A stretch of DNA of 64,000 nt from Chiloscyllium plagiosum (GCF_004010195.1 NC_057719.1:44309054-44373053), one strand, 5' to 3'; shown: positions 1,800-54,483, counted from the first letter of the stretch. Notes: a model not told the origin generated them from the letters alone. Translations and numbers: made by a program.

Positions 1800-1889
1800 C
1801 TGATTAAGGGCTTATGCCCGAAACGTCGATTCTCCTGTTCCCTGGATGCTGCCTGACCTGCTGCGCTTTTCCAGCAACACATTTTCAGC
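1800..1889 (+). mobile_element. Short hammerhead-bearing repeat, family A (degenerate core)
   Basis: CTGATTA-A-GGGC ttat GCCC-GAAA-CG-TC, then a GATGCTGCCTGACCTGCTG tail shared with copies at 7866, 37426 and 52175. Confidence 0.75.
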
Positions 1890-3119
1890 AAATGGCATGG
1901 CCAGCTAATGCAGTCGGGGAAATGTCAGTTAGGGATCTGGGCACTTTTTATCCAGGGATGTCTAATTAGTTCACTCAAGGGAGTGGACCACAGTCTGTTG
2001 GCTATGTCTGTAAAAACTAAGGTGAAAGGAAGGGCAAATGGGGTTAATGCTGGAGGAATGAACCTCACTAGTTGTTCTTTAGGACTGGGGACTGCAGGCT
2101 GGGGGTGATGATAATCATGATGTAAGGGGCAGCAGTATCTGCATGGAGGAGGGTAACAGTAAAGCATGAAAAGGAACAGAGTCATGCAGGCGTGGAGCTA
2201 ATTCATGGTCCAGAGTATTATGATTTCAAGGGAAGATACCGTGAATGACCACACTTGGCATGGTCAACTCATACAGGCTGGGTGGAAAAGATGGCTAGTT
2301 GCAGACTCATGTAGAATCTTGGGTGGGGACCTGGGGAGGTGTGAAGTCTCTTGCATTTACAAGAAGAGTTACCAGGAAAGGGATTTGGATGTTTGGGGGC
2401 TCACTGAAATGCTGAAGCAGTGGCTGCAAGATTCTGACCGAGGAGTACTTACTGACTGTTGCTAACCAGCTGGAATCAAAAGTGTGTAATAGTGAAGGAA
2501 ATGGCTAATACTACACTTAGGTCAGGGTAAGTGACCCAACCTGTGAAGCAGGGGGCCTTCATGTTAGGGCTAATTAATGTTAGAGCTTTTAATGGGAAAT
2601 ATTATTGCTTACAATCCCATGTACTTCACAGGACATAGAACTATGACACCCCTAATACCTGGCTATCCTAATGCACAGTTCTTGGCTTTGTGTTGTACCT
2701 CCCTGCCACAGACATTGCTGAACAATACATTCACATTTAAATTTTTGATATGAAGGCTGTAAAAAATAGGAATGTTGTACAAGGAAGGCAGGGAGATGAA
2801 CAACCAGATGTAAGGTGGAATCAGTGAAATTGATCTTTAAAAGTGCAAAATTATGCACATTGTTATACATGCCACTAAAGTAGCTTCAATAAGCCTTCTT
2901 TTTCCTTGCCCTTCCTCTATGTCTTAGTCACTTCCTGGTTCCACAGCTGGGATAGCCAACTTGTCCATGGAGGTAGCCAGATAGCTACATGATTTGCTAC
3001 ATTACTGTAGTTTCTGGGCAATGAGTGCCACTGGGTCGCACATACTTGTATTCCAGTTTATTTCACTCTACGCATGTCAATGAAGTTGCTGACTGCCAAC
3101 ACCATAAGCTCTCCCTGTT

Positions 3120-3325
3120 TCATTGGTCTTCATATGGCACTGCTGGCCCCTCCTGCAGAATTTGGATATGGCACTGACCCAGGTAGTGACCTCAGAACAG
3201 GCTTCCAGAGGTTGGTGGTGTGGCCTCCTTTGCTGTTGTTGCCTCCTTCTGGAATGAGGACTGTTCTCCTCTGAACCATCCCCTCAAACAAAAGCTTCAG
3301 ATCTGTCTGACAATTATGGTGCCAT
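3120..3325 (-). pseudogene. Decayed Myb/SANT-like DNA-binding ORF (probably Harbinger/PIF-associated)
   Basis: Manual translation across frameshifts: MAP*..DLKLLFEGMVQRRTVLIP..RRPHHQPLEACSEVTTWVSAISKFCRRGQQCHMKTNE. Paralogous to the relic at 7712-8067. Confidence 0.6.
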
Positions 3326-5527
3326 TTTGAGCTTCTTCAACATGTTTAGACCTTTGACTAAGCAGGGCAGGTTTGGAATGCTTGTGCTCGTCTGAGTGGC
3401 CTTTTAAAAACGGCAGGGGTGCAAGAAATGATGGTCTTTGGTGGATATCTGCTGAATGTTGAGCTATTCTGGGAACAGTGTGTGGTAAAGTGGGGCTGAA
3501 ATTAGACATGCTGGATGCCATGAGGCAGACTATAATAAGGTGAACTGGCAGGATAATGCAAGATAATCCATGAAGCTTCATGGTAGAAATCCCTTCAAAA
3601 AACTGGAAGCAACTTGACTTAGCCAAATACACATAAGATTCAGCTCTTTGTGACTCCCAAGCTGCAGTATATTTTTCTAGGGTGTGATGTCTTACCTGCA
3701 AGCCTTCCTAAACCTCCATTACCAAGCCCAGCATCATCTTCAATTTCCTCCAGTTCTTCAATATCTAAGCCCAGCTGATGTAAACAGAATGCAATAAAAT
3801 TAAAATTGTTTCCAATTCAAGTTTTATATTTCAAACTGCATGTTAGTTAACTCTAGCCATGAAATATAAATTACTGGTCTCCCTTCTTTTCATTCTTTAT
3901 GTTGGATACTCACTTTCAGAATTTTTTCCTTCAAAGATCCAGTTTTTATTTCTACCTTCATGGTATGTAACTTTCCCAGTTTAGACTTAGTTGAAACTTT
4001 CAAATAATTCACTGTTATGTCTTTTGCTCCACGTACCTGTTTCTTTGAAAGAGACCTAGAATCTTTTAAATTCAATGAATTCAAATCCATACGAGTGTTT
4101 ACTTATTATGATGAAACTACTGGATAAATCAGATGCCAGAGCAAAACTTGGATTGATTGATTTTTAAAAATTTTTAATGAACATAGTGGGCAGTTACTGA
4201 ATCACAGTCACATGAACCTAACAGTTTTTATTTTAAACAAAAGAACAAAAGTTTATTACACAAGGGTTAATTTGAGAAAAAAAGGCGAGGAAGAAAAGGA
4301 AAAAGAAAAGAAAAAAAGCAGAGAATGAGGACAAACCCGGGCACAGGAACCTGGACACTGCCTACTCCGCCGCTGTCGTTATAGACAACTGTAACCTCCA
4401 GTGGCGACCATGCTGCCTATAGAGGGATAGCAGGTAAAGATCCCCCAAGGGAGCATACTGAATTACCAGACTCTGAATCCACCAGCTTCACTGTTATTAT
4501 CTACAGCTCTTAGAAACAAAATGCAGGCATGGACTAAGAATACCCCAAATCATCATCACTGAATGTGTCATCTGCTGGAGCAAGACTAGTGTTCAGAAGG
4601 AATGACAAAGGGTCCTGGATACAGAGGAAATTGGGGATAGACAGCAATCACTGAGAATGAAAATCAGAACATTGGAGGGAAATCCAAGAAACTATGATAG
4701 ACCTATGCATCATTAAGCATGAGAGGCCAGACAGCACCTAATTGAAACTGGCTTCCAACACAAATGAGACATATTTGGATTTATTTTTGTCAATTTATTT
4801 TCTGTTGGTTATATGGTGAGCCTCCTCTGCTCAAACTACAGAACATGTGGGCATCCTTATTTCTGCACTCCTTGAACTTTTCTGCTAGTGAATACTTTAT
4901 TTATTTAGTTTATTTATTCATATGAATGTATGGGTGGTAACTTTGGCTAATTCTACCTTAAAGTATTACAGGTCCTCTTCCATGCAAGAGAAAGCAGCAG
5001 TCAGTGTGACAGGGCAGTAACATCACATGGCATTTAGTTTATGTGGCTTTTAAGGATTCACTCAGAATGTGAGATCAAAGTATAGTACAGTGCACTCCTT
5101 CAAGATAGACAGTAGGTTGGAAGCAATCCTGAGGTGCTTCCTTTTCACCCATCCATCTTCAGTTAACCTTTAACATTTCAGAGGGCACACAGACTGCTGA
5201 ATTACCCAGAAATGCTTAAGCATCCTTACCCTGAGAGGGTCAAAACTTTTGCAGCCTCTCTCAACAGGTCACTGAGCAATGAGAAAGAATAGAGATGTGA
5301 ACTTCCCACTGTACATGTCCCAGCCTTGAATGGCTGTGTGCTTCCTTGAAAAGCTGAAAGGGAGAATAAAATGTTACCGCTGGAAATGAGTTGAATCATC
5401 ACTGATGCTGTGCCCTCATTCACAGGCTAGGTGTAAGTCTGAATGACCCTACATAGGGCAGGGCCCTACCTCAATCCCTGCACATTGATTTTAGTGTCAG
5501 TGGTGTCCACATTAATGTACAATACCT

Positions 5528-6453: not shown

Positions 6454-6486
6454 TTGGCTTGAACTTGTGCAGGTTTTAAACATCAC

Positions 6487-7711: not shown

Positions 7712-8067
7712 CTTGTGCGGTGCAGAATGTCATTCATCTTCTTCCCTCACTGCTGGACATTTGTTTTAACCTTAGCAACTGACTGTCCTGGGCTTCCACC
7801 TCAGACCAGACTGGCTGTGTCCAGTGGTGTGGCCTCCTTTGCCAGCTAGCAGGAGAACAACTAGGAGAAAGTGAGGACTGCAGATCAGAGTTGAGAGTGT
7901 GGTGCTGGAAAAGCACAGTAGGTTAGGCAGCATCCGAGGAGCAGAAGAATCGATGTTTTGGGCATAAGCCCTTCATCAGGAACTGCCTTTCTTAAAGCCA
8001 TCCTGTGTATGAACACCTCCTGGTGCCTGTCATTAAGTCGAAGAGGTAACTTGCCTTTCTGGGCTAT
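7712..8067 (-). pseudogene. Decayed Myb/SANT-like ORF split by a hammerhead-bearing repeat
   Basis: IAQKGKLPLRLNDRHQEVFIHRMALRKAV | insertion 7866-7982 | WQRRPHHWTQPVWSEVEAQ..NVQQ*GKKMNDILHRT, ending at a GT at 7710-7711. Confidence 0.6.
7866..7982 (-). mobile_element. Short hammerhead-bearing repeat, family A
   Basis: Minus strand reads TTC-CTGATGA-A-GGGC ttat GCCC-AAAA-CA-TC; GAAA and CG have decayed in a CpG-type pattern. Confidence 0.75.
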
Positions 8068-8487: not shown

Positions 8488-8987
8488 NNNNNNNNNNNNN
8501 NNNNNNNNNNNNNNNNNNNNNNNNNNNNNNNNNNNNNNNNNNNNNNNNNNNNNNNNNNNNNNNNNNNNNNNNNNNNNNNNNNNNNNNNNNNNNNNNNNNN
8601 NNNNNNNNNNNNNNNNNNNNNNNNNNNNNNNNNNNNNNNNNNNNNNNNNNNNNNNNNNNNNNNNNNNNNNNNNNNNNNNNNNNNNNNNNNNNNNNNNNNN
8701 NNNNNNNNNNNNNNNNNNNNNNNNNNNNNNNNNNNNNNNNNNNNNNNNNNNNNNNNNNNNNNNNNNNNNNNNNNNNNNNNNNNNNNNNNNNNNNNNNNNN
8801 NNNNNNNNNNNNNNNNNNNNNNNNNNNNNNNNNNNNNNNNNNNNNNNNNNNNNNNNNNNNNNNNNNNNNNNNNNNNNNNNNNNNNNNNNNNNNNNNNNNN
8901 NNNNNNNNNNNNNNNNNNNNNNNNNNNNNNNNNNNNNNNNNNNNNNNNNNNNNNNNNNNNNNNNNNNNNNNNNNNNNNNNNNNNNNN
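8488..8987. other. Assembly gap (500 N)
   Basis: Run of N. Confidence 1.
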
Positions 8988-9713
8988 GAAAAAGACCTTG
9001 GCTATTCACTTACCTATGGCCCTCAAAATTCAAACCTTTATTAGGCCATCTTTCAATCTCCTACAATCCAGTGATAAAAGTTCCCACCAATGCAGCCTGT
9101 CTTTATAACTCCATACCTCCAGATAACATCCTGGTAAATATTTTCTGCACCCTCTCCAATTTAATAATATCCTTCCTATAGCAGGGCAACCAAAACAGTA
9201 CACAGTACTCGAAAAATGGCCTCACCAATGTCCTGTACAACCACATGACATCCTAACTCCAATACACAAATATCTGAGCAATGAATGCAAACGTGCGAAA
9301 CGCCTTCTTAACCCATCCTGTCTACCTGTGACACAAACTTCAAAGAATTACATAACTGAACCCTAGGTCCCTCTATTCTGCAAAACTACTTTAATTGTAT
9401 AAGTGCTACTTTAATTGCCCTACCTCAATTGTACAAGTGCTATCTTTGTTTGTATTCTCATATACAATCACTCACATTTATCCAAATTAAATGCTATCTG
9501 CCACTCCTCAGCCCACTGACCCAAATGATCAAAATCTCTTTATAACCTTAAATAACTTTCTTCACTGTCACCAAATTCATCAATGTTGATGTCATCTGCA
9601 AACTAACTAATCATACCTCCTATATGCTCATTCAAATCATTTATATAAATGACAAACAGGCCTCCAATCCAAAATAAAACCTCCCACTACCACTCTCTGT
9701 CTCCTTGCATCAA

Positions 9714-9926
9714 GATTTGGAGATGACGGTGTTGGACTGGGGTGTACAAAGTTAAAAATCACAGAACACCAGGTTATAGTCCAACAGGTTTAATTGGAAG
9801 CACTAGCTTTTGGAGTGGTGCTCCTTCATCAGGTGGCTCTACAACCACTTGATGAAGGAGCAGCGCTCCGAAAGTTAGTGCTTCCAATTAAATCTGTTGG
9901 GACTATAACCTGGTGTTGTGTGATTT
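9714..9926. mobile_element. Palindromic Penelope-type mini-element with two opposed hammerhead motifs, family B
   Basis: Arms 9756-9836 and 9845-9926 are inverted copies. Imperfect TSD CCTTGCATCAA (9703-9713) / CCTACCATCAA (9927-9937). Confidence 0.8.
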
Positions 9927-9953
9927 CCTACCATCAACTCAATTTTGTAACCA

Positions 9954-13620: not shown

Positions 13621-14542
13621 TTCTTTTATCTCCTTTCACTTCCACAGCAGTACGGAGTTAAAATTGAAGTCATTTTGCCTCATTCAATAAATAAAAGTTG
13701 CAATTTGCTTTTAAACCTATTATTTGTTGTTTTTTAGTAGCTGGCTCTCTTCCCATTCTGACTGTCTGCATACTTTCAGTTACACATTCCTTAATGTCTT
13801 TTTCCCACTTCTTCAGCTCTGAAAAAGCCCATATTTTCAGCGGTATCATTCCTGACACCATGTTTCAACTGGTCACTTGTTAAAGCTCCCACATACTGCA
13901 TACTTACTGCAGAGGTATAAGTTGATTACTACAGCAAACCACCCAGAAAATTTAACATAATTTCATCAGCCACACTGGATATTGTTTTCAAGTTGTAGAA
14001 CTCAATCAAGGGCAAATCCCCATTTACCTGGTTTCTCTTTTTGGTGATGTGGAACTGTTTGCAGTAAGGCTCATCACCACTATTGTCACCCATTGCTATA
14101 TTTTAAACTTCCATACAGTACTAATAGTTACTGGCAGCCCTTTACATTTCTCCCCAAGATTACGCTCATAATATAAGGAGGATCCCTATCCATTTTTACC
14201 TTGAAGCCCCTTCTGATAATAATAAAGAATAATCCCTACTATTTATAACAGGACCTGGTCAAAACAGTGGTCACTGACATTGGTTTTTACCTTGGGATCC
14301 CATTAAAATGATTAAATCTTATTAAAAGAATGGAAGGGAAAAAGGATATGCACTGAGTATCATGTTGGGCTCTTGCTCGTGAGATTAGTCGTGAGAGCTT
14401 TCCCATTTATGTACTGACCCTCTGCCCTGGGCAAAACAACCACGAACCCTCAGTTTTGGGGAAGCTCCTGTTTACAAAGCTTTTGAAGGTTGTTTGTTTA
14501 ACTTCGGGATGCATGTGCCGTAACGTTATGTCCCCAATCTAC

Positions 14543-14794
14543 CTTGGGGTCCTTATCGTAATAGTACTGCTGGGTTCGTATCCAGCGGCCCACCAGATGA
14601 TCACGCACAATGTGTGCTAGCGCCAAATAATAATCCCTCATGGTAGCCACATTACGGTCTTTCACCAGAGTGAAGTGCAGGTGCCGATTAAATCCTAACT
14701 TTAACCCCGGAACATTTTCTAAACCGACCAATCCGCCTAAACCACGAATAGTGATCTGTTTCTTTCGCTCGCTTGCTAAGACTTGTTTTGCCAT
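14543..14794 (-). CDS. PYGL: Glycogen phosphorylase (liver form by synteny), coding exon 1
   Basis: ATG at 14794; [84 protein letters not shown]; 252 nt; phase-0 donor AAG|GTAGAT at the conserved exon-1 boundary. The isoform call rests on adjacency to TRIM9. Confidence 0.9.
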
Positions 14795-14865
14795 GTTGCT
14801 GCTCAGATCACCGGGGGCTCGAGCTCTTTCCGTTTGGCCGTTTTCTTCAAACTGCTTCGCTTGGT

Positions 14866-16249: not shown

Positions 16250-16885
16250 CAGTCAGAAATAACACAACAGCAGAAATCACAAGTTTTCAGAGCGTAGCCC
16301 CTTCATCAGACCACAGAATTTATGGCCAAAGAGATCAAGGGCAGAGAGATCAAAAGATCATATAAATGGTGTGAGTGGAGTGTCAAATAATAAGTCTCTG
16401 CAGGAGACCAAGGGTGTTAGATGGTGTGAGTAAAGTCAATAGCTAAATAACAACTGAAGGGATGACCTATAATCCAATTAAATGAGGCAGAGAGAGGTAA
16501 TTACAAAAAATTAAAAATAAGGTGGTGCCGGAGATAAAGCAATTGATTGGAATAACATGGAACAAAAACAGAAGCTGCTAGAAAAGCCCAGGAGGTCCAG
16601 TACATCTGTAAAGAAAAACCAGAGGAAGGGTCACTGGACCCAAAACATTAACTCTGAATTTTTCTTCACAGATGTCACCAGACCCACTGAGCCCCTCAGC
16701 AACCCCTATCTCCGATTTACAGCATCCGCAGTTCTTTCAGTTTTTATTTGACAGGAATAACCTGATAGGTATAAGAGTTGATATGTCGAGGTGATGTGTC
16801 AAAACAGGACAGTAAGGAAGATTTTACAGATACTGTACACAAGTGTGGTGGGGTCACACGTAGTGTGACATGAAACCAAGATCAT
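16250..16885 (-). mobile_element. Penelope-like element 3' end with hammerhead motif
   Basis: Minus strand encodes the ORF terminus DLGFMSHY (about 16860-16883). Downstream at about 16280-16309 it reads CTGATGA-A-GGGGC tac GCTCT-GAAA-AC-TT. Confidence 0.7.
16560..16753 (+). mobile_element. Inverted-repeat mini-element with decayed hammerhead, family C, nested in Penelope
   Basis: CAGAGGA-A-GGGTC actg GACCC-AAAA-CA-TT; TSD GGAATAACATG (16549-16559) / GGAATAACCTG (16754-16764). Confidence 0.65.
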
Positions 16886-16889
16886 GTGA

Positions 16890-19074: not shown

Positions 19075-19500
19075 AGGATGTTGCCTGTTATGGTGTCAGC
19101 TTAGGTACGAAGTACCTAGGTACAAATCTTAGATACAAAAAAGGGTTTAAAACAAAGTTGTATTACTTTACAATGGTTCATAGTATAAGATGGAAAAAAT
19201 TAAAAAAATAATACAACATCAGGTTATAGTCCGACAGGTTTATTTGAAAGCACTAGCTTTCTGAACGCTGCTCCTTTATTAGGTGGTTGTGGGGAAGTAA
19301 GACATGGTTAAAAGAATAAATATTACAGTCAGATAAGTAAATTTCAAATAAAAATTACATTGCAGTAGCTCAGCGCAGGGCTTCTACGTGTGGTCTGACC
19401 GCCCTTACCAGACCACAGTTCAACAACCATCTCTGCTTTGCTGCAAGCCTCCAGTTGGCTCCGCACCAGCTCTCAGCTTGCTCCAAGGTAAGTTTTCCCA
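19075..19500. repeat. Unclassified repeat (copy 2) containing a family-B hammerhead fragment at about 19212-19292
   Basis: Similar to 11900-12417. The insert reads CTAATAA-A-GGAGC agc GTTCA-GAAA-GC-TA on the minus strand. Confidence 0.6.
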
Positions 19501-19934
19501 GGAATTAGTTCCCCACGCTGGCCTCCACTTGGGGATTCCTTCCCTTTGCCAGCCTTGGAGGGGAACTTGCAGGTAATGCTATTCCCATAAATCTGTCATT
19601 ATCTTCTAGATGGTAGTGGTCACAGGTTTCGAAGGTATTGTGGAAGGAGCCTTGGTGAATATTTCCAGTGCATCTTGTAGATAGCACACACTGTTGCCAC
19701 TGAGTAGGTGGTGGAGGGAGTAAACGTTCTTGGCTGTGGTGCCAATCAAAGAGGCTGCTTTGTCCCGAATAATGTCATGATTCATGAGTGTTATCCAGGC
19801 AAGCGGGGAATATTACATTACATTTCTGACTTAAGCCTTGTAGATTGCAAACAGAATTTGAGTCAGGAGGTGAGAAACATGTTGCAAGATTCCTAGCCTC
19901 TGACCTGCTCTTGTAGTCACAGTACTTATATGAC

Positions 19935-20345
19935 TAAAACAAAAACAGAAATTGCTGAAGAATCTTAGCAGGTCTGGCATCATCTGTGAAAAGAAAGCAA
20001 AAATCAATGTTTCAGGTCTCCTGACCCTTCTTCATAATGGTGGCATATATGCTGAAGACAGGTGCTGAGGGGGAGGGTGTAAATGATAACTGGAGATAGA
20101 GCCCAGAGAGAACAACAATTCGGCAAAGAGATGGATAATGGTGAGCTGGGGAGAAAGAAAAGCTGGTAATAGGGACTTTTGATGGGTGAAATTGGGTTGG
20201 CGGTGACAAGAACAACCCATGTGATGACAAGACTAAGGGTGTGAAGATGGGTAAAGTACATGGAAGGAGGGGTTCAAACTCTAAAATTATTGAACTCAAT
20301 ATTAAGTCCTGAAGGCAACAGGTTCCCAAGTGGAAAATGAAATGC
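19935..20345 (-). mobile_element. Penelope-like 3' relic with decayed family-C hammerhead
   Basis: Minus strand reads ATGAAGA-A-GGGTC agga GACCT-GAAA-CA-TT at about 20006-20035, followed by a GATGATGCCAGACCTGCT tail. Confidence 0.55.
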
Positions 20346-24904: not shown

Positions 24905-25862
24905 CCCGACTACACAGCAGGTACTCGTGTGACATGGCCAACGTTGTCTATCTTATACACTGCAGGCAAGGATGCCCTGGGGCATGGTACATTGGCAAGA
25001 CTAAGCAGACTCTACGACAATGGACACCCAGCAAAATTGCCAGACAGGGATGTTCCGTCCCAGTTGGGGAACACTTCAGCGGGCAGGGATATCTAGCATC
25101 CGTTCTTTGGGTGACCGTCCTGCAAGGTGGACTTTGGGATATGCAGTAAACGCAGAGTAGCCGAGCAGAGGCTGATGCCAAATTTGGTAGCCATGAGTGT
25201 GGCCTTAACCAGGACCTTGCGTTCATGCCACACTACAGGTGGTCCCACTACACTTTACACTCATACACACACACACACTCCTTCATGCTCACACATTCAT
25301 GCAGACCTTCTCTCATACATATAGACCCCACACCTTCTCTCATGCGTATACCCACTCACAGGCTTAGACTCCATTACACTCACACACACTCATGTAGACC
25401 CTCTCTCATGCATATGCTGTCTCTCAGACAAGGGCATATACATCCCACATCCTCTCACAGGCTTATACTCTGTCACAATCATGCGCACACACACTCACAC
25501 ATAAATCGATAGGGTGAATTAGCATTTGCAGAATTGTATTTGCAGATAAATCCTTTGTTTTGAAAAAGCACACACTCCGCAGGCAATCAATCCATGTGAC
25601 ATTTTATAAATTCCTACTTTGGAAATAGAACCAGTCTGACTCAAGATTGGCATACGACAGACTCTAAACTTACATCTTTAATGCATTGTCTGAGCTGAGA
25701 TGTCACCTTTTTATATATAAAACCTTAAGTTATCTCAGGAATGTGGCTTAAAAGAAGTTCTAGAATTTACATATGAATGAATCATTACCTTCAACCCATT
25801 CTAAAAGATGAAAGACTAAACAGCAATCTAGGTTTGCTCAATATAAGGTATCAGTTGCAAGA
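24905..25862 (+). mobile_element. Penelope-like element: GIY-YIG endonuclease relic plus 3' region
   Basis: NVVYLIHCRQGCPGAWYIGKTKQTLRQ, VGEHFS, RRVAEQRL, GLNQDLAFMPHY, then a CA-rich UTR. Lies between CR1 5' and 3' pieces. Confidence 0.85.
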
Positions 25863-26002
25863 CGTTTGGATAAGTTCATGAATAGTAAAGGTTTGGAGAA
25901 GTATGGGCCAAGCACAGGCAGGTGGGACTAGTTTAGTTTGTGAATATGGTGGGCATAGACTGGTTGGACCGAAGGGTTGTTTCCATGTTGTATGACACTA
26001 TC
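25863..26002 (+). mobile_element. CR1 3' terminus
   Basis: Typical TTGGATAAGTTCATGAATAG...TGTATGACACTAT end. Confidence 0.75.
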
Positions 26003-37258: not shown

Positions 37259-37425
37259 CTATAGAGAGGTCGAGAATATAACTGATGAAAAATAACTATT
37301 TTTCAGTTATTTCTAAGAACCAATTAACACTCAGTGCATCTTCAGTGACACTCAAATTTAGAAAAAAGGTAAATAAATTTGCACATCCCTATAATTCCTT
37401 ATACTTGATTCCTCATTCAACATTG

Positions 37426-37513
37426 CTGAAAATGTGTTGCTGAAAAAGTGCAGCAGGTCAGGCAGCATCCAAGAAGCAGGAGAATCGACATTTCGGGCAT
37501 GAGCCCTTCTTCA
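37426..37513 (-). mobile_element. Short hammerhead-bearing repeat, family A
   Basis: Minus strand reads TGAAGA-A-GGGC tcat GCCC-GAAA-TG-TC plus the family tail. Confidence 0.75.
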
Positions 37514-38115
37514 CGTATGCAAACTTGCCCAGCTATTGGAATTTCATGAACTATACATAATATTTCTCCACAGTGCCTCACTCCCACAATAGGTTTCTGG
37601 TAACTAGATTAAAGGGTCTTTCTGCTTGTGGTGCTACCTCAACTGAGTTTGTCTGGCTTTTGTTTGTGTGATCATAGCTCAAACCAACTATTGCAGGAAA
37701 TGTAACTGGTTGTCTTCAAGTTTAAACAGAGTTTATTTACTGTAGAGAATAGGTAGCTCCTGCTGGGGAGAACAATTACACACACTTCTGTGTCATTCTC
37801 TCTCCATTTGTCTGTGTGTCTGTAACCTATTTCCAGTTCCAACCTGCTCAGTTAGCTGAGAACCAAATCAGGTGCATTTGTTGAGAAAGTCTTAATTCCT
37901 CATTGGTTGCATATTGTAGGAACCTCTTGCTACAAAACCATAGTTCACAATCGATATCCTTGCTGACAAATTATGAAGCCTGTGTAGTAAATCTAATTTT
38001 TTTAAACTGTTTTTTTCTCATTACAATCCAGTTACTAATGACAAAAATTTAAAAACTTGATTCTTACAAAAGACTCACTTTCGAACTGCACAATAAAAAT
38101 GACATTATTTGGTCA

Positions 38116-38287
38116 CAGTCAAAAATCACAGAACACCAGGTTATAGTCCAACGGGTTTAAGACTAAAATCTGATGAAGGAGCAGCGCTCCGAAAGTTAGT
38201 ATTTTCAAATAAACCTGTTCGACTATAACTTGGTGTTGTGAGATTTTTGACCTTGTCCAACCCAGTCCAGCACCGGCACCTCCACAT
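38116..38287 (+). mobile_element. Inverted-repeat mini-element with near-intact hammerhead core, family B
   Basis: CTGATGA (38170-38176)-A-GGAGC agc GCTCC-GAAA-GT-TA; perfect 13-bp TSD CATTATTTGGTCA (38103-38115 / 38288-38300). Confidence 0.85.
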
Positions 38288-38339
38288 CATTATTTGGTCA
38301 TGACACAGAGAGAATAAAAAAGAATTCAGATTCAAATTA

Positions 38340-38630
<291 letters not shown>

Positions 38631-39530: not shown

Positions 39531-41826
39531 CACTGATATTTTGATACATGCTAAAGATTAAACATAAAATACTGTAAATACTCAGTGGATCAAGTAGCAT
39601 CTGTGGAGAATGTTTCTAGTCAATAACTCTTCATTAGCACTGCATCAAGTGTCCTCCCAATAACAATTTATCTGCCCAGAAGCTGCCTGAAGTGTTGGAT
39701 TTTAAGATTGTACAGTTAACTCTGGTAAGATCACAATTCATAAATAGTGCTACATAATTAAAGGTTAGTTTAATAAGTGCCGAAAGGAAACCAACTATGT
39801 ATACATAGCACCAATGACCTAATGAAACATCTCACGGCACTTATTATAATTGCAGTGAAAATGGATCATCAATTAACTTTCACAATTGGACTTTAAAATA
39901 CCAGAAAATTTCGTGGACTTAAGTTTAAAAAGGACAAATCTTTAGCTAAAACAGATGCTGTAATCTCCTGAATAAATTGAGCCAAGCTCAGAAGCCCATC
40001 AATAAACAGGGGTACCCTGAAAAGAACATTGAAACTCAATGCATATCTTCCAGTTTATTCACATCTTTCTGGAAACTTTACATTGGGATGAAAGGTTATA
40101 TACAGAGTACTCAGCTTGGGAAAGCCAAGAACAGACTCAGGAAAATAAAGATGGACTGTTATCAAGTTTGAATGAGCATTTTCTTTCATTCAATAGCACC
40201 TTGGAATTGACTCTTCATTTTTGACCTGGATAACTAAGTTTAATTGAAGCTTGACAAGCTTTGTGCTAAAACTGGAAAATAACATTTTTGTTGCGACTGA
40301 TTACAATTGGATTCTCAGCAATAGAAGAGAGATAAGGAAGAAGAGATTTTTGAACAAGAACTGAAAGCCTCTCTTTAAACCTCAAGTTCAGACACTAGCT
40401 GATTAAAAAGAACTTGGGATAATAGCAATGATTCAATTAGGATAGGATTTTGAGACACCTGCAGTTTTATTATTATGGAGAAAATAAAATCACAGCTGAA
40501 TAGTTGGACTCAGGTCTTTTTATTCTTACCTCACAAAGACTCTAAACTAAATTGCAACTTCCCTTACCTGTTATCTGTACCAAATACCTGCCCCCATCAT
40601 GCCCATTACTTTGTAAACTGTGTTTTTGTGTTTGCTGTCACATTTTACCTTTGTCCTTTCAGGTAATAAAACTGCATTCTCTTTCTTCAATGATACCTTG
40701 GAAATGATTCCCATTCATTTTTGATCTGGCTCACTAAATTTAATTAAAGCGTGTTAGCTCTGTGCTAAAAGGGAAAAAAGAAGACATTTGTTGCAACTGA
40801 TTGCAATAGGATTTTGAAAAAAAAGACCAGCTGTGATCCCTCCTCAGCTGGTTGAACCATAGGAACATAATAAAACAAAATAGGAAACTGAACTACATCA
40901 GGCAGTTGGTCAGATGACGAAAAGCACAGATGTCATTGAATCGTAAAGGAGGACTTGTGTGTGTGTGTTTGGGGAGGTGGGGAGAGAAGAGCTGTAGGAA
41001 GGTTATTCCTAGCTTTGGAACTATGCAGCTGAATATCTCAGAAAGTTATGGGGCTAAAGGAGGCAATATAGATATACTGGAGCAAGATGGTGAAGGAATT
41101 TAAAATAATGATGAGAATTTTAAAATCAAGATATTGTTTTACTGGGACTTAGTGTAGAGGAATGATAAGGAAATAAGTCTCAGGCAGTTAAAATGATGCC
41201 CACAGAGATTTAGGTAGCCACAAGCTTACTGAGTGTAGACTGTGAAAGACCAGCCAGTAGGAGATTGGAAAAGTCCACTCTAGAGATTACAAAGGCATAA
41301 GAGGTTCAGAAGCAGACAAACTGAGACAGGGCCAAAGTAGGGCATGGTTACAGAAGTGGAAATAGGCAGACTTAGTGATGGCACAAATGTAAGGTCTGTA
41401 GCTAATCTTGCAATTATATGTGACAATCAGGAGCAGGGGTCAAAAGCAGCATCTTGAGCTGTCCCATTATTTAATTGGAGGATATTTCTGCTCATCTAGT
41501 TTTGATTGTTAGATAAGCAACCTGATAATTTAGCAACAATGTGGTGTCATGAGAGAAATAAATAAACTCAAGGTGGCTTTAGAATCCTCAACAAGTGGGT
41601 TGTAGCAGAACTTTACAAAATTGTGTTTTAATAGATAAATAATTTGAGTTATTCTTTTCATTTTTCCATTTCAACAGTTCAAGATCTTCCTAACCTCTTT
41701 TCTAATATACCCACTGTACCTCTGGAAAGAATTCAAAACAAATTTTTTGGAATGAGAAACATTTTGCAATGCCCTGAAGAGTAATGATGAGTATTGGGTA
41801 TTTTATATCATTAATAAAATACATGT

Positions 41827-42009
41827 TATTGCTGAAAAAAAGGCAAATATTGTTAAAGTTTTCATCTTGCACTGCTCATGACAATTCACAATCAGCACTG
41901 TCATCTCATACAGTATCAATGTTGTTTTTCCTTTAATTTAGCATTTATTATTTAGTCCTGATGCGTGCAAAACAAAACGCTTTGACAAATATATATTTCT
42001 TTAGCAATA
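41827..42009. mobile_element. Old inverted-repeat element with decayed hammerhead motifs, family D
   Basis: Arms about 41827-41884 and 41953-42009 are imperfect inverted copies. The right arm reads GTC-CTGATGC-GTGCAAAAC-AAAA..TT-GAC. Confidence 0.55.
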
Positions 42010-42673
42010 CTCAATTCTGAACTACTGGTCGACAATTTAAAATACGTAATTCAACATGTGTGCACAATGATTATATATATAATATTAAAGGAATGCGCTT
42101 CACTGGGCTGAATGATAATTTTTCGATCCTACTTTTCATATTTTTCTAGACAACTCTTAAACACATTAAAATACATTCTCAAGTTTGTGTACAGGAACTG
42201 AAATTCTCACTCTTAATCAGTATTGGAGGGAGGATATGTAGAAAAGATCCAAGAGGGACTGACAGTAGTGATTGCAATGGGTTCAGCCAGGTGGACCTCA
42301 TAGAACAGGACTTCCCTGACTGGACCAAATTAACAGCCTCAGTCAGGGAGCTCTGGCTGACAGAAACAAACATGAAAGTCAAAGGTTTTGTTCACTCTTG
42401 AGACGTGGCTCTGAGGAAGCTGGATTAGTGTCAAGGACTTTTCACACGTGAATAATGGGTGACTTGGTGACAGGATGCTGCCTCTATGGAATTATTTCAC
42501 GGACTCTTCAATTAGACTTGTTAAAAATCAACTGGAAAGAATGAGTATCTAATTTTTGCTTATATAGTGAAGTTTGGATAGGCCGGATAAATTATGCAGT
42601 TTTTCTGATGCAAACGAATTTCAATTGAGTCCAGCATTGAATAGTTTAACAATAATCATCATTTTTCACTTTA

Positions 42674-43018
<345 letters not shown>

Positions 43019-44240
43019 TCATATAGAATAAGACAAGAGACCTTTTGGTAAATTTGCATACAATCTGACAAAACAAAACAAGAATCTCACACTTCAAAAA
43101 GAAAATAAAAACCACCGAAAGACCAAGATTGAACCGTTCCTTTATGGAGGTAAATTTAGGCCATTTCTTATTACTAGGACGAAAGTGGTATCGCAAGAGC
43201 ACATCAAACCAGTATTATGGTAGTCTTTGTTCTAATTTTCCTAACAAATAATAAAAGCAACCACATAAATATTTTCATTACTTCACACACGTCTGATTTG
43301 GAATCATATTGCCAGTCTTTCATTCTTGAAGTGCAAAAATCCTGGCACTCTTCATAACAGCACTGTCCTTGTACTCACTGGTTTGCAGTGGTTATGGAGG
43401 TGGGAGAGATAGGGCCCAGTCAGACAGAATGACAGGAAGTCATAGGGATGAATAACAGTATGCTCAGGAGAAAAAAAAGAAAAGCTGATAAGGGCAATTA
43501 AAGCAACAAAGGTTGGTCTTGTTACTAACGTCCACATCCCAAAGAAGGTGGCATTCCAACCTGATTTCAAAACCATCAACTCAACAACTTATCTATTAGC
43601 TTTCTGTCCTTGCAATCTACCAGCTACTATCCCCATAGAAAGTTCTTGACCAAATTGTCAAAAATCTACTGTTATGTTCTTATTCTTTTTTGCACCCCCA
43701 ACTTCCTCCACGCAGAGCCCCTATCCCTCCAATCTAGGGTCTATATTTCTGTATCCTGCCACATGTCCAAACATCCTTCATTCTGACTTTCCCAACAGCC
43801 TCTTTCCTGCCTGACCTCTAATGTTTCAATCCCCACACCCTACCCCAGCCTTTCACTTTTCCTAATCCCCATTTAATAATCCTTCTCTTGTCATAACTCC
43901 TTCTGTTCCAAATGAATCTATTGTCACACTCCTGAATTCCAGTTTCCTACAATCTAGTCCACTGATCTGGTAGACGTCCACAGGAAGAATTCCCTGGCTG
44001 GGAAGTGTAGAAATGGGGTTATAAAAAGTATGGGTGCAAGCACCACCCACAATCACCAATAAAATTAATACAACTGTCCCCACTCAGCTCAGCAAGAACT
44101 TACTGGCAAGTTTGAACAAGTCTGTCAGTGAATTACAGACCTCAATATTGGCATCTCAGATCGCCAGAAGCTACAGGCCAATCAGAGTTTCTGGTTCCAA
44201 AAGTCCTCTGGCTGAGGCCTATTCCTCAGAGGATTAAGTT

Positions 44241-44402
44241 GAAAATCACACAACACCAGGTTATAGGTCCAACAGGTTTATTTGGACGAAGGAGCAGCGC
44301 TCCAAAGGCTTGTACTTCCAAAAAACCTGGTGTATTATAACTTGGTGTCATGAGATTTTTAACTTTATCCACCCCAGTCCAACGCGAGCACCTCCACATC
44401 AT
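44241..44402 (+). mobile_element. Family-B inverted-repeat mini-element (truncated hammerhead)
   Basis: Same arms and tail as 38116-38287; GACGA-A-GGAGC agc GCTCC-AAAG-GC-TT. Confidence 0.75.
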
Positions 44403-44404
44403 GG

Positions 44405-44722
44405 CAACCAGTTCTCTATCAATGTCAATACATTACCTCAGATATCATAGCTTTAATTTTCCTTACAAATTTCCTGTGTGGAACCTTGTCAAAAGCCTTT
44501 TGAAAGTCCAGATGCACAACATCTACTGATTCACCATTGTCTACTCTACTGGCCACATCCTCAAAAAAGTCCAGAAGATTTGTCAAGCGTAAAATCCCTT
44601 TAGTGAATCCATGCTGACTAGGACCAATTTTGTCACTGCTTTCCAAATACTTAGTTATTACATCCTTAATGACTGACTCCAGCATTTTCCCCACCACCGA
44701 TGTCAGGTTAACCAGCCTATAT
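44405..44722 (-). mobile_element. CR1 RT fragment
   Basis: YRLVNLTSVVGKMLESVIK..QHGF..LDFQKAFDKVPH. Confidence 0.9.
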
Positions 44723-44805
44723 TGTATCCCATCCCTGGTATGATTCTGAAACAGCTTTATCCAGAACCACAAAGGAGATCCTCTGTAACAAACACAAGAG
44801 GAACG

Positions 44806-44937
44806 CTGAAGAAAAGTCACAATGGACTCAAAACTATTAAGTTTTTTCCTCCACACATGCTGTCAGATCCACTGAGTTTCTCAAGTATTTTCTGAGTTTG
44901 TTTCAGATTTCTAGTATCTGCAGTATTTTGATTTTAT
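44806..44937 (+). mobile_element. Decayed family-C-like hammerhead repeat
   Basis: CTGAAGA-A-AAGTC acaatg GACTC-AAAA, plus an ATGCTGTCAGATCCACTGAG..TCTGCAGTATTTTG tail. Confidence 0.55.
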
Positions 44938-47111
44938 TCAAATCGCATCTTCTGTAGCTGGGATTGTGATGATATTTCCCTTCTTATCACCTCTGCAGCC
45001 TTTGACAAAGTCCACCATTCTATTCCAACATGTGTTCTCTGTTATACAGCTGCTGTCATTTAACTCCATTTTTACAGCCACAGGATTGCTAGCAAAAATA
45101 CATATTCTTATCTCTGCCCAATTTCCTCTATAATACCCCAAACAGTTATCCTTGACATTTTCCTCTTTGTACAAGTTTCTACAAGTTTCCTCTTCACAAA
45201 ATGTGATGAAATAGGGCAAAATGTTTACTGATTGGACCTGCATGGACGTTTCCCTGTATGGTGGAATTTCCAACTCCATTGCAGTGCCAATGATGACTTG
45301 ACAGTCACCTCAGCAGGTAACTATATGACAGGAATGTTAGTGCCAATGAGAATTAGGTATGGTTAGATCAGGGAAGATGATCACAAAGGAACATACTGTC
45401 TTCATTAAAAGACAGCCTTAGCTAAGATAAGTAAACGGAAAAAGAAAATTAAGAGCTCATAAAGCTAAGTTCTCACATTATGCTTAATAGGAAAATATGA
45501 CTAATACTTCACAATACACAGAATTATGATATTTCATGGAGATAATCCTTTACTAAAGACTGCATCAAGATATATACAATGTTTAAACTGAATATCACAA
45601 AATAAATATAATATGTACACTTTATGACCAGAGGTTGTCAAATATTTTACATATTTTCTTTAATTATTGGCTACCTCTTATAATTGACTTAGAATTATGA
45701 AGCAAAAACACCATTTTCTCCAGCAAACTACTTCCTTCAAGAGATTTTTTGGCTCGTCAAAGTGATTTTTGCTTATGACAATGACAAGATGATGAAGGAG
45801 AATATATTATGCTTTGTAAAGGGCAGATCGCATTTCCTTGTTGTAACAATTATAGATGTTATGATTAATTTTGGTGTTTTAGATCAGTATCATTTTGACC
45901 TTCCTTGTATTCTAAAACTGACATAACATGGAATGACAGGCCGTTTCCACAATTAGTATTATAAGTTTCAGCATACATCTCGCACTTGAATTAAATATTT
46001 GTAAAAACATGTGGAACACAAAACAGAAATCTGAAGCCCACAAACTAAAAACATATCAGTTTTGTACAAAAGGTGGCTAATTAGACTAATCCAGGAAATT
46101 GAAATGATACAAAGGCAGTATTTCTAGTGCGAGGGGGTAAAATAAGGCCATGTAATAGAATATAAATTAACTTAAAAATTAGATGTATCTTGAAAATCCC
46201 TAGAGATGTTACATTTCTTAACATGGAGAGAGAGAACAAAAAGTGAAAAGAATCACACATGGAACTCAGAATACCAGGAGTGTGGATGAGAATGGAGGAT
46301 ATTTCTTTCCTCAGCATTGGCATTTCCCCTCAATAAGCAAATTATCTACTTTTATGCGCAATAGAAAGTATAAAGTGCAACAACTTAGATTTTCATTACC
46401 CGTTTAATGTAGTAAAACATTCCAATGTGCTTAACAAGATCATTATCAATAAAAATATTTTTTAACCAAGCCACATGAGAACAAGGAATACTGAATACAT
46501 TTTTATGTATTCTCATTTTTCCTCACCACAAACTCTTACATTTTCCACAGCAAATAAATTAGTTGATCTCCCAATGTTGCTCTGTTTGGAATTAGCTTTT
46601 TTTATTCCCTAAGTACCAATCCATTAACTGTGATTCTCCTAATACCATGTAAATTACCGGTGTGAATCTGAAATCCTACTGATTCACCATAAAACACTAA
46701 TTTGTGTTGCGCTGCTGCATCTGTCTTACAGTTCTATGCTGAGATGCTTCCAGTTAGTTTATGTTTTAGACTCCAAAACAGTTATCTTAAGTTTTATGTC
46801 TCATTAAGCAAGTGACTGATCACAAATGTTATGCCACAAAAGATATGGATATTTAAGACTCACATTTCAGCTTAACAATTTAACATTTTTTTATTTGTTC
46901 ATGGAATGTAGGCTAAGCCAGCATTTATTGCCAATTCCTACTTAGGATTGAGAAAGTGGTGGTGAGCTTTTCCTGAACTGCTGCAGTCTTTGGGATGTGG
47001 GGACACCCTACAATACTGCTCAGAAGGAAGTTTAGGGTTTTGACCCAGTGACAGTGAAGGAACGGCAAGATAGTTCCAAGTCAGCTTGGAACTCAATTGT
47101 TAACAACACAG

Positions 47112-47652
47112 TGAGTTTTGAGAAGATTTATAGCTCAGGTTGAGGTTCTGGATGTAGGTTTGCTCGCTGAGCTGGAAGGTTCAATTTCAGACAATTTGTC
47201 ACCATACTAGGTAACATCATCAGTGCGCCCCCGGATGAAGCACTGTGGTATGGCCCACTTTTTATTTATGTGTTTAGGTTTCCTTGGGTTGGTGATGTCA
47301 TTTCCTGTGGCAACATCATTTCTTGTGGTGACATCATTTCCTGTTCTTTTTCTCAGGAGGCAGTAAATCCTAGGACAAGCCAAACAGAGACACACGCGAG
47401 AATTCCTTAAAACATGGCATTCCAACTGGAACTCTATCAACAAACATAATGACTTTGATCCCATTTACCGACCCTGAGAAAAAGAACAGGAAATGATGTC
47501 ACCACAAGAAATGACGTCACCAACCCAAGGAAACCTAAACACAAATAAAAAGTGGGCCATACCACCGCTGCTTCATCCAGAGGCTCACTGATGATGTTAC
47601 CTAGTATGGTGACAAATCGTCTGAAACCGAACCTTCCAGCTCAGCGAGCAAA
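47112..47652 (+). mobile_element. 5'-truncated Penelope insertion with inverted pseudo-LTRs, family E
   Basis: Arms 47159-47368 and 47463-47652. The spacer encodes ILGQAKQRHTREFLKTWHSNWNSINKHNDFDPIY (GIY-YIG C-terminus). Perfect 13-bp TSD GTTAACAACACAG (47099-47111 / 47653-47665). Confidence 0.9.
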
Positions 47653-48004
47653 GTTAACAACACAGCTAAAATTAGCCAACTTTAACTTAGAATTCTACTA
47701 ACTGAGTGGAATTAAAATAAATATTCACATAACTAAAATAATCATAATCAAATAAAATAATCATGGCATTGATGCTTGACATCACAAGTAGTTCCTTGGG
47801 TTTTAAGTCATATAGATACAAGGGCAAAGGACAACAAGCTGTACATTTTACAACCAGCTATCAGAATAAATTTAGCATCAGGTTTGAAAGATGTTCTGCT
47901 TTAACAGCAAAATCCACCCACTGATTAAATTTATAACAGAACACAATGCTTCTTTACTGATGTGACACCATCTGTAGAAATCTTGCCTGCAGGAAAAGTT
48001 TTAA

Positions 48005-52174: not shown

Positions 52175-52259
52175 AAGGGCTTATGTCTGAAACGTCAATT
52201 CTCCTGCTCCTCGGATGCTGCCTGACCTGTTGTGCTTTTCCAGCACCACACTCTCAACT
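52175..52259 (+). mobile_element. Family-A hammerhead repeat, 5'-truncated
   Basis: AGGGC ttat GTCT-GAAA-CG-TC plus the family tail. Confidence 0.75.
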
Positions 52260-52395: not shown

Positions 52396-53013
52396 TGTGA
52401 CAATACTATGGCTTTGAGAGGTGTATTTTGTCCTGTTCTTTTTTTTATTATGAAGTTGAGACAGAGATTATGAGTGGTCTGTTCCAAGCTAATAAACAAG
52501 CTTGGGGTTTTAGAAAAAGCTGGAACAATAGAAGCAGCTTGAATAGGTGAAATCAGGTTCCCACAGAACCAAGGTTTTAGTTCAGCTTTTAGAGGATGTT
52601 AGATGTTTTTGGAAGCTCATTGCCAAAGCTGCTACATCTGTCTCTCTTTGCTATAACTAAAAGCTGGAGTTCTGTGTTGCCAGAATTACATGTGAGACAA
52701 TCTCTTTTACTGAATTTGCCTTTGTCAAAAGGGGTGTTTATGGGATGTTACTACATTAGAACAGTTGCTGTTTAGTAGTTAAATAATCTATTATTCTGTT
52801 AAGGTTTCTAATAGAATTAAGATATTCCAAATTCTTCTTTGTTTTGTTTGCATTTTAATTAGAAGGTAAGAATAAACTATGTTTTGCTTAAAGCCACATA
52901 GTGCAATTAATCAAATTACATCTGGATATACAGCACCTTACACTTGCCTTTAAATAAACTAAATATTCGGGCCTAGGCTATCTCTTTGATGTATTTGAGG
53001 GGTGTCCATAACA
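52396..53013 (+). mobile_element. Solo LTR
   Basis: TGT...ACA termini, 618 bp, flanked by 4-bp TSD CCAG (52392-52395 / 53014-53017); internal AATAAA near 52872. Confidence 0.75.
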
Positions 53014-54314
53014 CCAGATGTTGTAAATTAGTTTTTCCTTTTTTATCACGAGGAAAAAAAAAACTAAAATCCATGTGGCAGTACCCTAGAGTAGTTACAC
53101 CATGTGGATATACTTTTGGAAAGCTTTGCATATGCAAAGATTATTTGACAGAATATTTATGAAAGTTGTCTTATTTCATTTCTTACTTCAAGTGTGTATG
53201 CTATTTTCAAGATGACACGAAGATACAGTCCACAAATGTCTCCACTGCCAATTAACTGACCAATGTCAACAAGCATTATTTTACATACAACTTGTGAAAA
53301 CACTTTCTCGAGAGGGGCAGAAGAGAGGCTTATTGGAAGTAAGGAATTGCCAGGCAGGTGAAGACCAAAATTTGCTGGTTTGTTATCTAACATCCTGTAG
53401 TCATAGTGTATAATAATTGGGTCCTGTTGATCAGATCAATCAAAGAATCTGCAGAGGACTTAAACATAAGTTGAGGAAAATCCCCAAGTGGTGGCAAGCT
53501 CTGGGAATCATATGTATAAAGTCATCTCTTTCTCGTATGTACATCATCATCTTGAACTTGAAATCAGTAGTTGTGCATCAAATTTAAAAAAATGTAATAC
53601 TCTACATACACAAGCAACTTAGATTTCTGTATGGACTCTGGAGGCAGGCCTCTCCAGAAAGCTTACTTTAATTTGAAAATTTCAACTTTTTTTGGACAAT
53701 CCATTTTTACATACATAAAATATGTACACAAAAAAACATGCTCCTACAATGATTGAGCTCATCCAATGAGTAGCTAAGCCATACAGACTAAGACACTCAT
53801 TTAAACTGCCACTCTGCAGTCAGCTCACAGCTAGCCAAAACCAGTCAGCCAGTCACCAGAAGCTAACAATCTGCCACGAGCCAAAATGCAGTCAGCCATC
53901 ATACACCACCAGTCAACGAAAGCCATAAATCAGACAGCTTGTAGCCAGCACCAGGAATTACCCAATCATTCTAGAAGCCAGTTAGTCATCTACCAGTAGT
54001 CATTTGCTACGCTACAGCCAGCAGCTAGTTAATCCATGATCAGACTCTTACTATTTTGCCTCAGGCATGGGGAATCACTGGAATTCAAGTGCCCATGTCA
54101 CTGAAGGACTGAGGAAGACTCACAACCAAAGATCTGAGTGCATTGCCAATTCTTGCATTTTATATATTGTCTTTCATAACATCAAGAAGTCCCTAAATAC
54201 TTGACAGTCAATGAAGTACTTTTGAAATTCAGTCAGTTTTAATGTGGAAAAAGCAGAACCACCAAATGCTGCCACATCCATTTTAAGTTCCCATCCAATC
54301 AACACTTTAGCACA

Positions 54315-54483
54315 AACCAAAAGAGAAAATGCTGGAAAATCAAAGCAGCTTTGACAAAGGGTCAGTTAGACTCGAAACGTCAGCTCTTTTCTCTCCTTAC
54401 AGATGCTGCCAGACCTGCTGAGATTTTCCAGCATTTTCTCTTTTGGTTCCAGATTCCAGCATCCGCAGTAATTTGCTTTTATC
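54315..54483 (+). mobile_element. Young inverted-repeat mini-element, family C
   Basis: Perfect 27-bp inverted repeat (54315-54341 / 54422-54448); perfect 15-bp TSD CAACACTTTAGCACA (54300-54314 / 54484-54498). Confidence 0.9.
54347..54385 (+). ncRNA. Minimal type-I hammerhead ribozyme motif, U3:A8 variant
   Basis: AGCU-[UUGACAA]-A-GGGUC aguua GACUC-[GAAA]-CG-[UC]-AGCU. Stems I and II pair; palindromic ACGU replaces stem III. Confidence 0.7.

What the first reader, a model, noticed from the sequence alone, without database searches (positions are those of the whole stretch)
1800..54483. Multi-family swarm of hammerhead-ribozyme mini-retroelements
Seen: at least 14 loci share one grammar, (C/U)UGANGA + one extra nucleotide + a short stem II + GAAA + two nucleotides + UH. 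The loci are near 1800, 7950, 9800/9850, 16290, 16620, 19260, 20010, 37490, 38170, 39620, 41960, 44290, 44810, 47190/47590, 52180 and 54350. They fall into at least five families with different stem II sequences (GGGC/GCCC, GGAGC/GCUCC, GGGUC/GACYC, GUUACC/GGUGAC, GU/AC), so structure covaries while the core is retained. Established: Penelope-like elements carry minimal hammerheads with a palindromic tetranucleotide in place of stem III and are thought to cleave as dimers. Inference: these are non-autonomous, retrozyme-like passengers of Penelope RT/GIY-YIG machinery (relics at 24905 and 47369). The density suggests a very large genome-wide ribozyme population. The phenomenon is known in outline; whether these families are described is unknown to me.
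Basis: partly seen in the sequence, partly recalled or inferred. Interest (0 to 1): 0.85.

Follow-up and report, generated by a model that had tools for sequence, protein, structure and literature searches.

The report
Shark Penelope ends carrying hammerhead motifs
The window is sprinkled with short, mostly decayed end-pieces of Penelope-like jumping genes that each carry a predicted minimal hammerhead ribozyme; this is a known kind of element, but this shark-like genome holds an estimated million copies, about 230,000 with the ribozyme core letters intact.

Summary
The loci are real. All 18 listed coordinates hit one of five repeat families (reversed control 0). Family sequences keep a minimal type-I hammerhead with compensatory stem changes and a U3-A8 core variant. 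Most window copies are broken: 2 pass a strict descriptor, and family E does not fit the stated grammar. The window is ordinary for this genome (about 323 copies/Mb in a 1.14-Mb sample; 236,091 intact-core pattern matches genome-wide against 2,155 control). The 'retrozyme-like passenger' reading is not supported for four of five families. They are the pseudo-LTRs of RT/GIY-YIG elements themselves (full pLTR-ORF-pLTR copy found), inserted as 5'-truncated solos or head-to-head hairpins, some with target-site duplications, with no excess of tandem units. Cores decay neutrally after insertion; conservation acts on the source elements. 5' ends pile up at the ribozyme's front edge, not at its cut site, about 30 bases below a TATA-like box, which suggests they mark the RNA start. 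The kind is published (Cervera and de la Pena 2014); I found no shark census in three searches. This scan reported the same elements before on other DNA of this genome. Cleavage untested.

The parts
1799..1888 (+). Family A solo pLTR stub; hammerhead core at 1800 with G8 changed; ends at the first 3' stop point (+87)
7860..7983 (-). Family A solo stub with tail (-3 to +128); core at 7979, G12 lost
9708..9929 (.). Family B head-to-head pair (cores at 9832 minus, G12 lost; 9849 plus, U3 with G8); folds as one long hairpin
16273..16560 (-). Family B subfamily copy with long upstream region; core at 16309, C11.1 changed, 5' strand of stem I deleted
16556..16745 (.). Family C head-to-head unit; forward core near 16620 decayed
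19187..19303 (-). Family B solo; core decayed
19934..20074 (-). Family C solo; core at 20035, C3 changed
24910..25863 (+). 5'-truncated family B element: GIY-YIG remnant (24910-25206), 3' region matching the family-B upstream profile (25769-25863); stops about 56 bases before the hammerhead position, followed by a CR1-like repeat
37423..37520 (-). Family A solo; core at 37514, C3 changed
38105..38295 (.). Family B head-to-head unit with 13-bp target-site duplication (38103, 38288); forward core at 38170 intact, palindrome imperfect
39560..39638 (-). Old family C copy, core decayed
41827..42010 (.). Family E: inverted fragment plus forward copy (core near 41958, decayed); different hammerhead layout; no ORF link shown
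44229..44413 (.). Family B head-to-head unit; forward copy starts inside the core
44804..44937 (+). Old family C solo, G12 lost
47105..47656 (.). One family D insertion: inverted pLTR (core 47223 minus), GIY-YIG end fragment 47367-47459, forward pLTR (core 47588); 13-bp target-site duplication (47099, 47653); both cores broken at the same letters
52175..52259 (+). Family A solo that starts inside the core
54314..54482 (.). Family C unit with short inverted piece and 15-bp target-site duplication (54300, 54484); core at 54351 is the U3-A8 variant, intact, with palindrome, 5-bp stem II and 4-bp stem I

Best explanation
These are the hammerhead-bearing end repeats (pseudo-LTRs) of at least four Penelope-like retrotransposon families, lying in the genome as 5'-truncated solo or head-to-head copies, likely written in by the elements' own reverse transcriptase and GIY-YIG endonuclease. 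Shown: contiguity with RT/GIY-YIG ORFs, target-site duplications in some copies, two 3' end points about 35-40 bases apart, 5' ends clustered at the front edge of the ribozyme, neutral decay after insertion. Inferred: the protein nicks DNA and starts cDNA at one of two internal sites 85-130 bases downstream of the core (as shown in vitro for an anole element); an RNA that begins at the pLTR promoter just upstream of the hammerhead would then yield only a 90-130-base copy, often folded back into a hairpin, while read-through RNA would yield longer copies. The hammerhead is predicted to cleave only as a dimer through its ACGU/AGCU palindrome or with protein help, likely matters in the source elements, and is likely inert in most inserted copies.
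For: L197 is pLTR-ATG-ORF(RT+GIY-YIG)-pLTR with family B ends; L212 runs from an inverted plus forward family A pair into ORF start, RT and EN; L210 is RT-EN-family A; L205 is EN-family C; L209 and L215 are RT/EN-family D. 18 of 29 GIY-YIG loci (window copy left out) have a family B core 0.5-1.3 kb downstream on the same strand, 1 of 29 has family A there. EN lies upstream of 17 of 25 pattern-fetched D loci, 16 by a D-type query. Head-to-head 140 of 369 (null 7), tail-to-tail 2, head-to-tail 40 (null 41), 1 of 12 tandem arrays holds a copy. 3' ends: A 71 and 93 of 192 in two bins, B 27 and 30 of 64; 5' ends: A 98 of 192 within -12..+9 of C3, 6 of 192 at +28..+31. No shared upstream sequence among 70 short solos. 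TATA-like box at -36..-40 in 9 of 13 long B copies, at -46..-54 in 5 of 15 D copies, where 3 of 24 D copies start at -20. In head-to-head A pairs private changes hit core and non-core alike (17/228 vs 172/2356) but shared, template-borne changes avoid the core (0/228 vs 29/2356; with B 0/312 vs 31/3313, about 3 expected). G12, in a CpG, decays like other CpG G (34/161 vs 74/331). U3-A8 pattern 3,713 vs 1,796 control, mostly one subfamily among the 100 listed. Literature: PMC4209133, PMC8557442, PMC3846280, PMC11167929.
Against: The start-site step rests on spacing only; the family A box is non-canonical (14 of 39 copies, motif list chosen after looking) and C has 2 of 6. RNA reads showed no place where many molecules begin or end (polyA single-cell library, poorly suited). 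In random copies an EN is seen upstream in only 13 of 125 A, 2 of 42 B, 3 of 51 C, 9 of 15 D, so most copies give no direct link and promoter-bearing solos could be the real templates. Family E has no ORF link. The double-hammerhead fold is not the lowest-energy dimer for any of 9 copies. Both arms of the D insertion in the window share broken core letters, so a dead core may be copied (or arms converted). The shared-change test is underpowered.
Confidence: 0.8

Rival explanations
1. The short copies are independent non-autonomous elements (retrozyme- or SINE-like) with their own master loci, mobilised in trans by Penelope protein, possibly through circular RNA.
For: Most copies are 90-130 bases with sharp ends; solos that keep the TATA box could be transcribed; pLTR sequence was enough for in-trans integration in a rotifer (PMC3846280, passage); tandem retrozymes derive from pLTRs and occur in the one chondrichthyan sampled (10.64898/2026.07.22.740005); family E has no ORF link.
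Against: No excess of head-to-tail units; same subfamily variants in short and long copies; short copies lack the upstream promoter region and share no other upstream sequence; they keep the hammerhead at their 5' end instead of starting at the cut site.
Confidence: 0.13
2. The 5' pile-up comes from the reverse transcriptase stalling or folding back at the hammerhead's structure on a longer RNA, not from the RNA's start.
For: Stem II and stem I sit exactly there; 89 of 192 A copies have an inverted partner at that point; 35 of 192 stop inside the core region.
Against: The peak lies just beyond the hairpin (-4..-2), and in family D, where the TATA-like box lies further upstream, the few short copies start at -20, though n is 3.
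Confidence: 0.35
3. Inserted ribozymes are kept by the host to process its own transcripts.
For: About 1.2e5 copies are estimated to keep core, stem II, palindrome and stem I (27 in 769 kb); reads from a shark-labelled RNA run cover the motif on both strands.
Against: Post-insertion decay of the core is neutral; 22 of 24 window hits fail the strict descriptor; head-to-head copies fold into hairpins that bury the core.
Confidence: 0.05

Closest known systems
Minimal hammerheads (min-HHR) in pseudo-LTRs of metazoan Penelope-like elements (Cervera and de la Pena 2014, PMC4209133; Lunse et al. 2017, title seen only)
   Same: Type-I core without stem III, extra nucleotide before stem II, G10.1-C11.1, palindrome at 15.1-16.1, U3-A8 variant, many consensus families per genome, mostly solo copies, opposite-strand pairs.
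   Different: Sharks not named in the parts read; counts there were about 9,000 (X. tropicalis) and 4,000 (coelacanth) with a different descriptor, against about 234,000 above control here. Stems I are short (2-4 bp). Family E has a 2-bp stem II and six-base palindrome.
Insertion architecture of EN+ Penelope-like elements (Craig et al. 2021 PMC8557442; Arkhipova et al. 2013 PMC3846280; Frangieh et al. 2024 PMC11167929)
   Same: 5' truncation, adjacent inverted copy, 30-40-base optional tail, TSDs, putative TATA in the pLTR, pLTR overlapping the ORF start.
   Different: Here half or more of A, B and C copies are reduced to the 90-130 bases from the hammerhead to the tail, with a sharp 5' edge; I did not find that explained in the passages read.
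Non-LTR retrozymes of animals (Cervera and de la Pena 2020 PMC7229834; bioRxiv 10.64898/2026.07.22.740005)
   Same: Type-I hammerhead, pLTR ancestry, high copy number (axolotl up to 120,000 by section title).
   Different: Retrozymes are head-to-tail repeats that give circular RNAs; these copies are dispersed solos and head-to-head hairpins tied to ORF-bearing elements.

Membership tests
PLE minimal hammerhead (min-HHR) | Core C3-U4-G5-A6-N7-G8-A9, G12-A13-A14-A15.1, U16.1-H17 (or U3-A8) retained at family level | tested here: met
   Column counts; no subfamily-variable column in core or stem II, 0 of 17 against 14 of 62 elsewhere in A
PLE minimal hammerhead (min-HHR) | Extra nucleotide before stem II, G10.1-C11.1, palindrome replacing stem III | tested here: met
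   Families A-D: 35 of 46 strict hits palindromic. Family E differs
PLE minimal hammerhead (min-HHR) | Stems I and II pair with covariation | tested here: met
   C stem II A-U 17 / G-C 13, C stem I U-A 19 / C-G 5, D stem I U-A 9 / C-G 4 (8 mismatched); counts, no formal covariation statistic; A stem I only 2-4 bp with a U-U
PLE minimal hammerhead (min-HHR) | Self-cleavage as dimer or with protein | not testable with these tools
   Double-hammerhead fold can be drawn (-2 to -18 kcal/mol) but is not the minimum; no read-end pile-up
EN+ Penelope-like element | Single ORF with RT and C-terminal GIY-YIG between pLTRs | tested here: met
   L197; RVT_1 hit; homologues carry RVT_1 and, in many, PF01541. 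A, C, D linked by partial copies; E not linked
EN+ Penelope-like element | Inverted 5' copy, optional 30-40-base tail, TSD | tested here: met
   TSD clear in 3 of 16 window units
Neptune versus Poseidon clade | CX2-5CxxC linker before GIY-YIG (Neptune/Nematis) and RT phylogeny | tested here: inconclusive
   Linker seen in A and B proteins, not in D fragments; no tree with reference elements was built
Non-LTR retrozyme | Head-to-tail repeats with a hammerhead in each unit | tested here: not met
   40 of 369 against 41 expected; 1 of 12 tandem arrays holds one copy; sample is 1.14 Mb, rare arrays elsewhere not excluded
Non-LTR retrozyme | Independent of an ORF-bearing parent element | tested here: not met
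   A-D contiguous with ORFs and share variants with long copies; open for E
Non-LTR retrozyme | Circular RNA intermediates | not testable with these tools
   Only a polyA single-cell run and assembled contigs were laid
Rfam hammerhead families | Match to a curated covariance model | tested here: not met
   No hammerhead hit at E<=10 in the window or in 8 loci

The most novel reading that the evidence does not exclude
Because Penelope protein starts reverse transcription near the 5' end of its RNA, transcripts from the pLTR promoter are copied into 90-130-base ribozyme-headed minis as the default product; this has given a shark genome about a million hammerhead motifs, over 100,000 of them dimer-competent, the densest ribozyme population on record, with promoter-bearing solos (and family E) able to seed more in trans.
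Probability: 0.35. Interest if true: 0.65.

Novelty: new member of a known kind. Interest (0 to 1): 0.38.

Why it matters
The role of the Penelope hammerhead is still open: in vitro it was not needed for insertion (PMC11167929). This genome offers about a million natural insertion records. They show that uncut RNA is the main template (ends sit before the core, not at the cut site) while the core is conserved in source elements, which points to a function at another step. The motifs are invisible to Rfam and cover about 2.6% of sampled sequence, so they matter for shark genome annotation and as a source of hairpin RNA. The window itself is ordinary.

Tried and rejected
Rfam scans gave no hammerhead. 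Strict-scan hits at 9583 (inside a CR1-like repeat), 23577 (no other copy among held loci) and 38500 (in a TRIM9-like exon) were rejected as chance. Local clustering rejected. Tandem retrozyme organisation rejected in the sample. Cleavage-derived 5' ends: no peak at +28. I first suspected that U3-A8 at 54351 was CpG decay; rejected, since the A8 form dominates (against 6 G8 copies of that form). Core versus downstream rate (3.3% vs 6.2% in A) is confounded by minor subfamilies; the paired-arm test replaces it. Pfam missed the GIY-YIG relic; no solved structure matched the ORF. Family E: long upstream matches were inserted family A copies; no ORF found. No RNA holder listed for L197. Of two raw-read runs with a same-species label one laid nothing. 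Lunse et al. 2017 could not be read; Repbase and Dfam are not available, so whether these families are already deposited is open. Supplements of the 2026 preprint (its chondrichthyan families) could not be seen and may overlap. Searches for shark reports: (none relevant); for a TATA/start-site account (none).

Full report
Context. The window is G000:C10:44309054-44373053 in a 3.56-Gb assembly. It holds the first exon of a glycogen phosphorylase gene (about 14.5-14.8 kb, minus), TRIM9-like SPRY exons (38.3-43.0 kb, minus) and many CR1-like repeats (CR1 label recalled). The nearest named relatives of the element protein are from sharks (84-92% to bamboo and epaulette shark proteins, 77% to Heptranchias), so the host is a shark by inference.

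Observation. Profiles built from natural copies hit all 18 listed coordinates, 24 hits in all, none in reversed sequence. Exact family cores occur 1,305 (A), 2,601 (B), 15 (C, G8 form) and 487 (D) times, controls 0; E has 40 scored relatives at 73-87% identity and 3 exact cores. But only 38170 and 54351 pass a strict descriptor, and E has another layout: no extra base, 2-bp stem II, six-base palindrome, about 5-bp stem I. Rfam sees none of them.

Scale. A generic intact-core pattern matches 236,091 times against 2,155 for the reversed control (stems not checked by the pattern); the U3-A8 form adds 3,713 against 1,796. In 120 evenly spaced 10-kb stretches from large contigs (1,143,204 called bases) there are 369 profile hits (A 187, C 80, B 66, D 25, E 11), 323 per Mb, 2.6% of bases, which extrapolates to about 1.1 million, each arm of a pair counted. 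In the first 80 stretches 46 copies pass the strict descriptor (reversed null 2) and 27 also have stem II of 4 or more, the palindrome and stem I of 2 or more, about 1.2e5 genome-wide. The window's count is within the sample's range (P=0.26).

Structure is conserved in the sources. Subfamily variation avoids core and stem II (0 of 17 columns against 14 of 62 in A, p=0.03; 0 of 18 against 11 of 63 in B, p=0.11) and compensatory pairs occur in C and D. After insertion the core decays neutrally: G12 is lost as often as other CpG guanines, and in 43 head-to-head A pairs private changes are 7.5% in the core and 7.3% elsewhere, while shared changes are 0 of 228 against 29 of 2,356 (weak power). Of copies spanning the core, 66 of 109 A and 19 of 40 B are intact. 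Copies are old: median identity to column majority 0.89 (A), 0.91 (B), 0.81 (C, D).

They are pLTRs. L197 reads pLTR, ATG at the end of the family B unit, ORF with RT and GIY-YIG, second pLTR; L198 has the inverted 5' copy; L212 and L210 tie A to an ORF start, RT and EN; L205 ties C to an EN; L209 and L215 tie D to RT and EN. 18 of 29 GIY-YIG loci carry a B core downstream. In the window the relic at 47367 is inside the TSD-flanked D insertion, and the relic at 24910 continues into B 3' sequence. A and B proteins have the CX2-5CxxC linker that PMC8557442 assigns to Neptune/Nematis; D fragments lack it and have an ATG at the start of stem II as in the anole Poseidon element (PMC11167929); clade names are tentative without a tree. 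In random copies an EN is upstream of 13 of 125 A, 2 of 42 B, 3 of 51 C, 9 of 15 D. E has no ORF link.

Architecture. Head-to-head pairs 140 of 369 (null 7), tail-to-tail 2, head-to-tail at chance. 3' ends fall in two groups about 35-40 bases apart, the known tail. 5' ends cluster at the front of the hammerhead: A 98 of 192, B 25 of 64, C 34 of 85 within -12..+9; only 6 of 192 A copies start at the cut site; 19 of 24 D copies reach 60 or more bases upstream. Short solos share no upstream sequence (70 tested) and carry the same variants as long copies. A TATA-like box lies 36-40 bases before the core in 9 of 13 long B copies, less clearly in A (14 of 39), C (2 of 6) and D (5 of 15, at 46-54).

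Mechanism. From PMC11167929 (main text read): the protein cuts both DNA strands, starts cDNA at two internal RNA sites that define the tail, uses mainly uncut RNA, and assists the ribozyme. Applying this (inference): RNA starting at the pLTR promoter gives a 90-130-base cDNA ending at the hammerhead's front edge, often folded back; read-through RNA gives longer copies. The rival is stalling at the RNA structure. The double-hammerhead fold is possible but not the energy minimum, and head-to-head units form long hairpins. One polyA single-cell run with a same-species label gave 2,548 laid reads, mostly on the hammerhead-to-tail part, both strands, with no pile-up of ends; the second run gave none. 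This fits passive transcription inside other RNAs and does not test cleavage.

What is known. PMC4209133 (parts 1-2 of 4 read) describes this motif class, solo copies as truncated elements, opposite-strand pairs, the U3-A8 variant and weak dimer cleavage. PMC8557442, PMC3846280, PMC7229834, PMC6155905, PMC7761336 and 10.1101/443036 were seen as passages; the last notes expanded Penelope-like elements in whale shark introns. The 2026 preprint (parts 1-3 of 5, supplements closed) defines retrozymes as tandem units, includes one chondrichthyan, and found cleavage in 1 of 9 tested dimers. Lunse et al. 2017 was seen as a title only. Searches found no report of shark hammerheads; Repbase and Dfam were not available. 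Seven of eight earlier notes listed from this scan describe the same elements on other DNA of this genome.

Verdict. Real, very abundant, a new member of a known kind; not retrozymes in the defined sense. Interest 0.38, carried by the scale, the paired-arm evidence on where selection acts, and the testable start-site model.

Noticed in passing
window 14501-14830 (minus); 38337-38630 and 42671-43018 (minus): Host genes: glycogen phosphorylase first exon and TRIM9-like SPRY exons; the elements lie in their introns and between them.
   Followed up: partly
window 41827-42010; L217-L230: Family E is old, has CCAAT and TATA-like boxes, a 2-bp stem II and a six-base palindrome; shared sequence reaches only about 280 bases upstream; parent element not found.
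   Followed up: partly
window 47223 and 47588: Both arms of the family D insertion share the same two broken core letters: a dead-core template or conversion between arms.
   Followed up: partly
L025 and L052 (around the matched core): Chimeric units: an inverted arm of one family joined to a forward copy of another (A with B; B with C), suggesting template switching between families.
   Followed up: no
window 116-760 (plus): 3' end of a non-LTR element with a weak zf-RVT match, probably Tx1/L1-like (label recalled).
   Followed up: no
window 8488-8987: 500-base assembly gap (N).
   Followed up: no
L040/L041, L210, L214, L215: A few direct partial tandems of pLTRs 355-600 bases apart exist; these could allow dimer folding in cis.
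   Followed up: no
   Followed up: no
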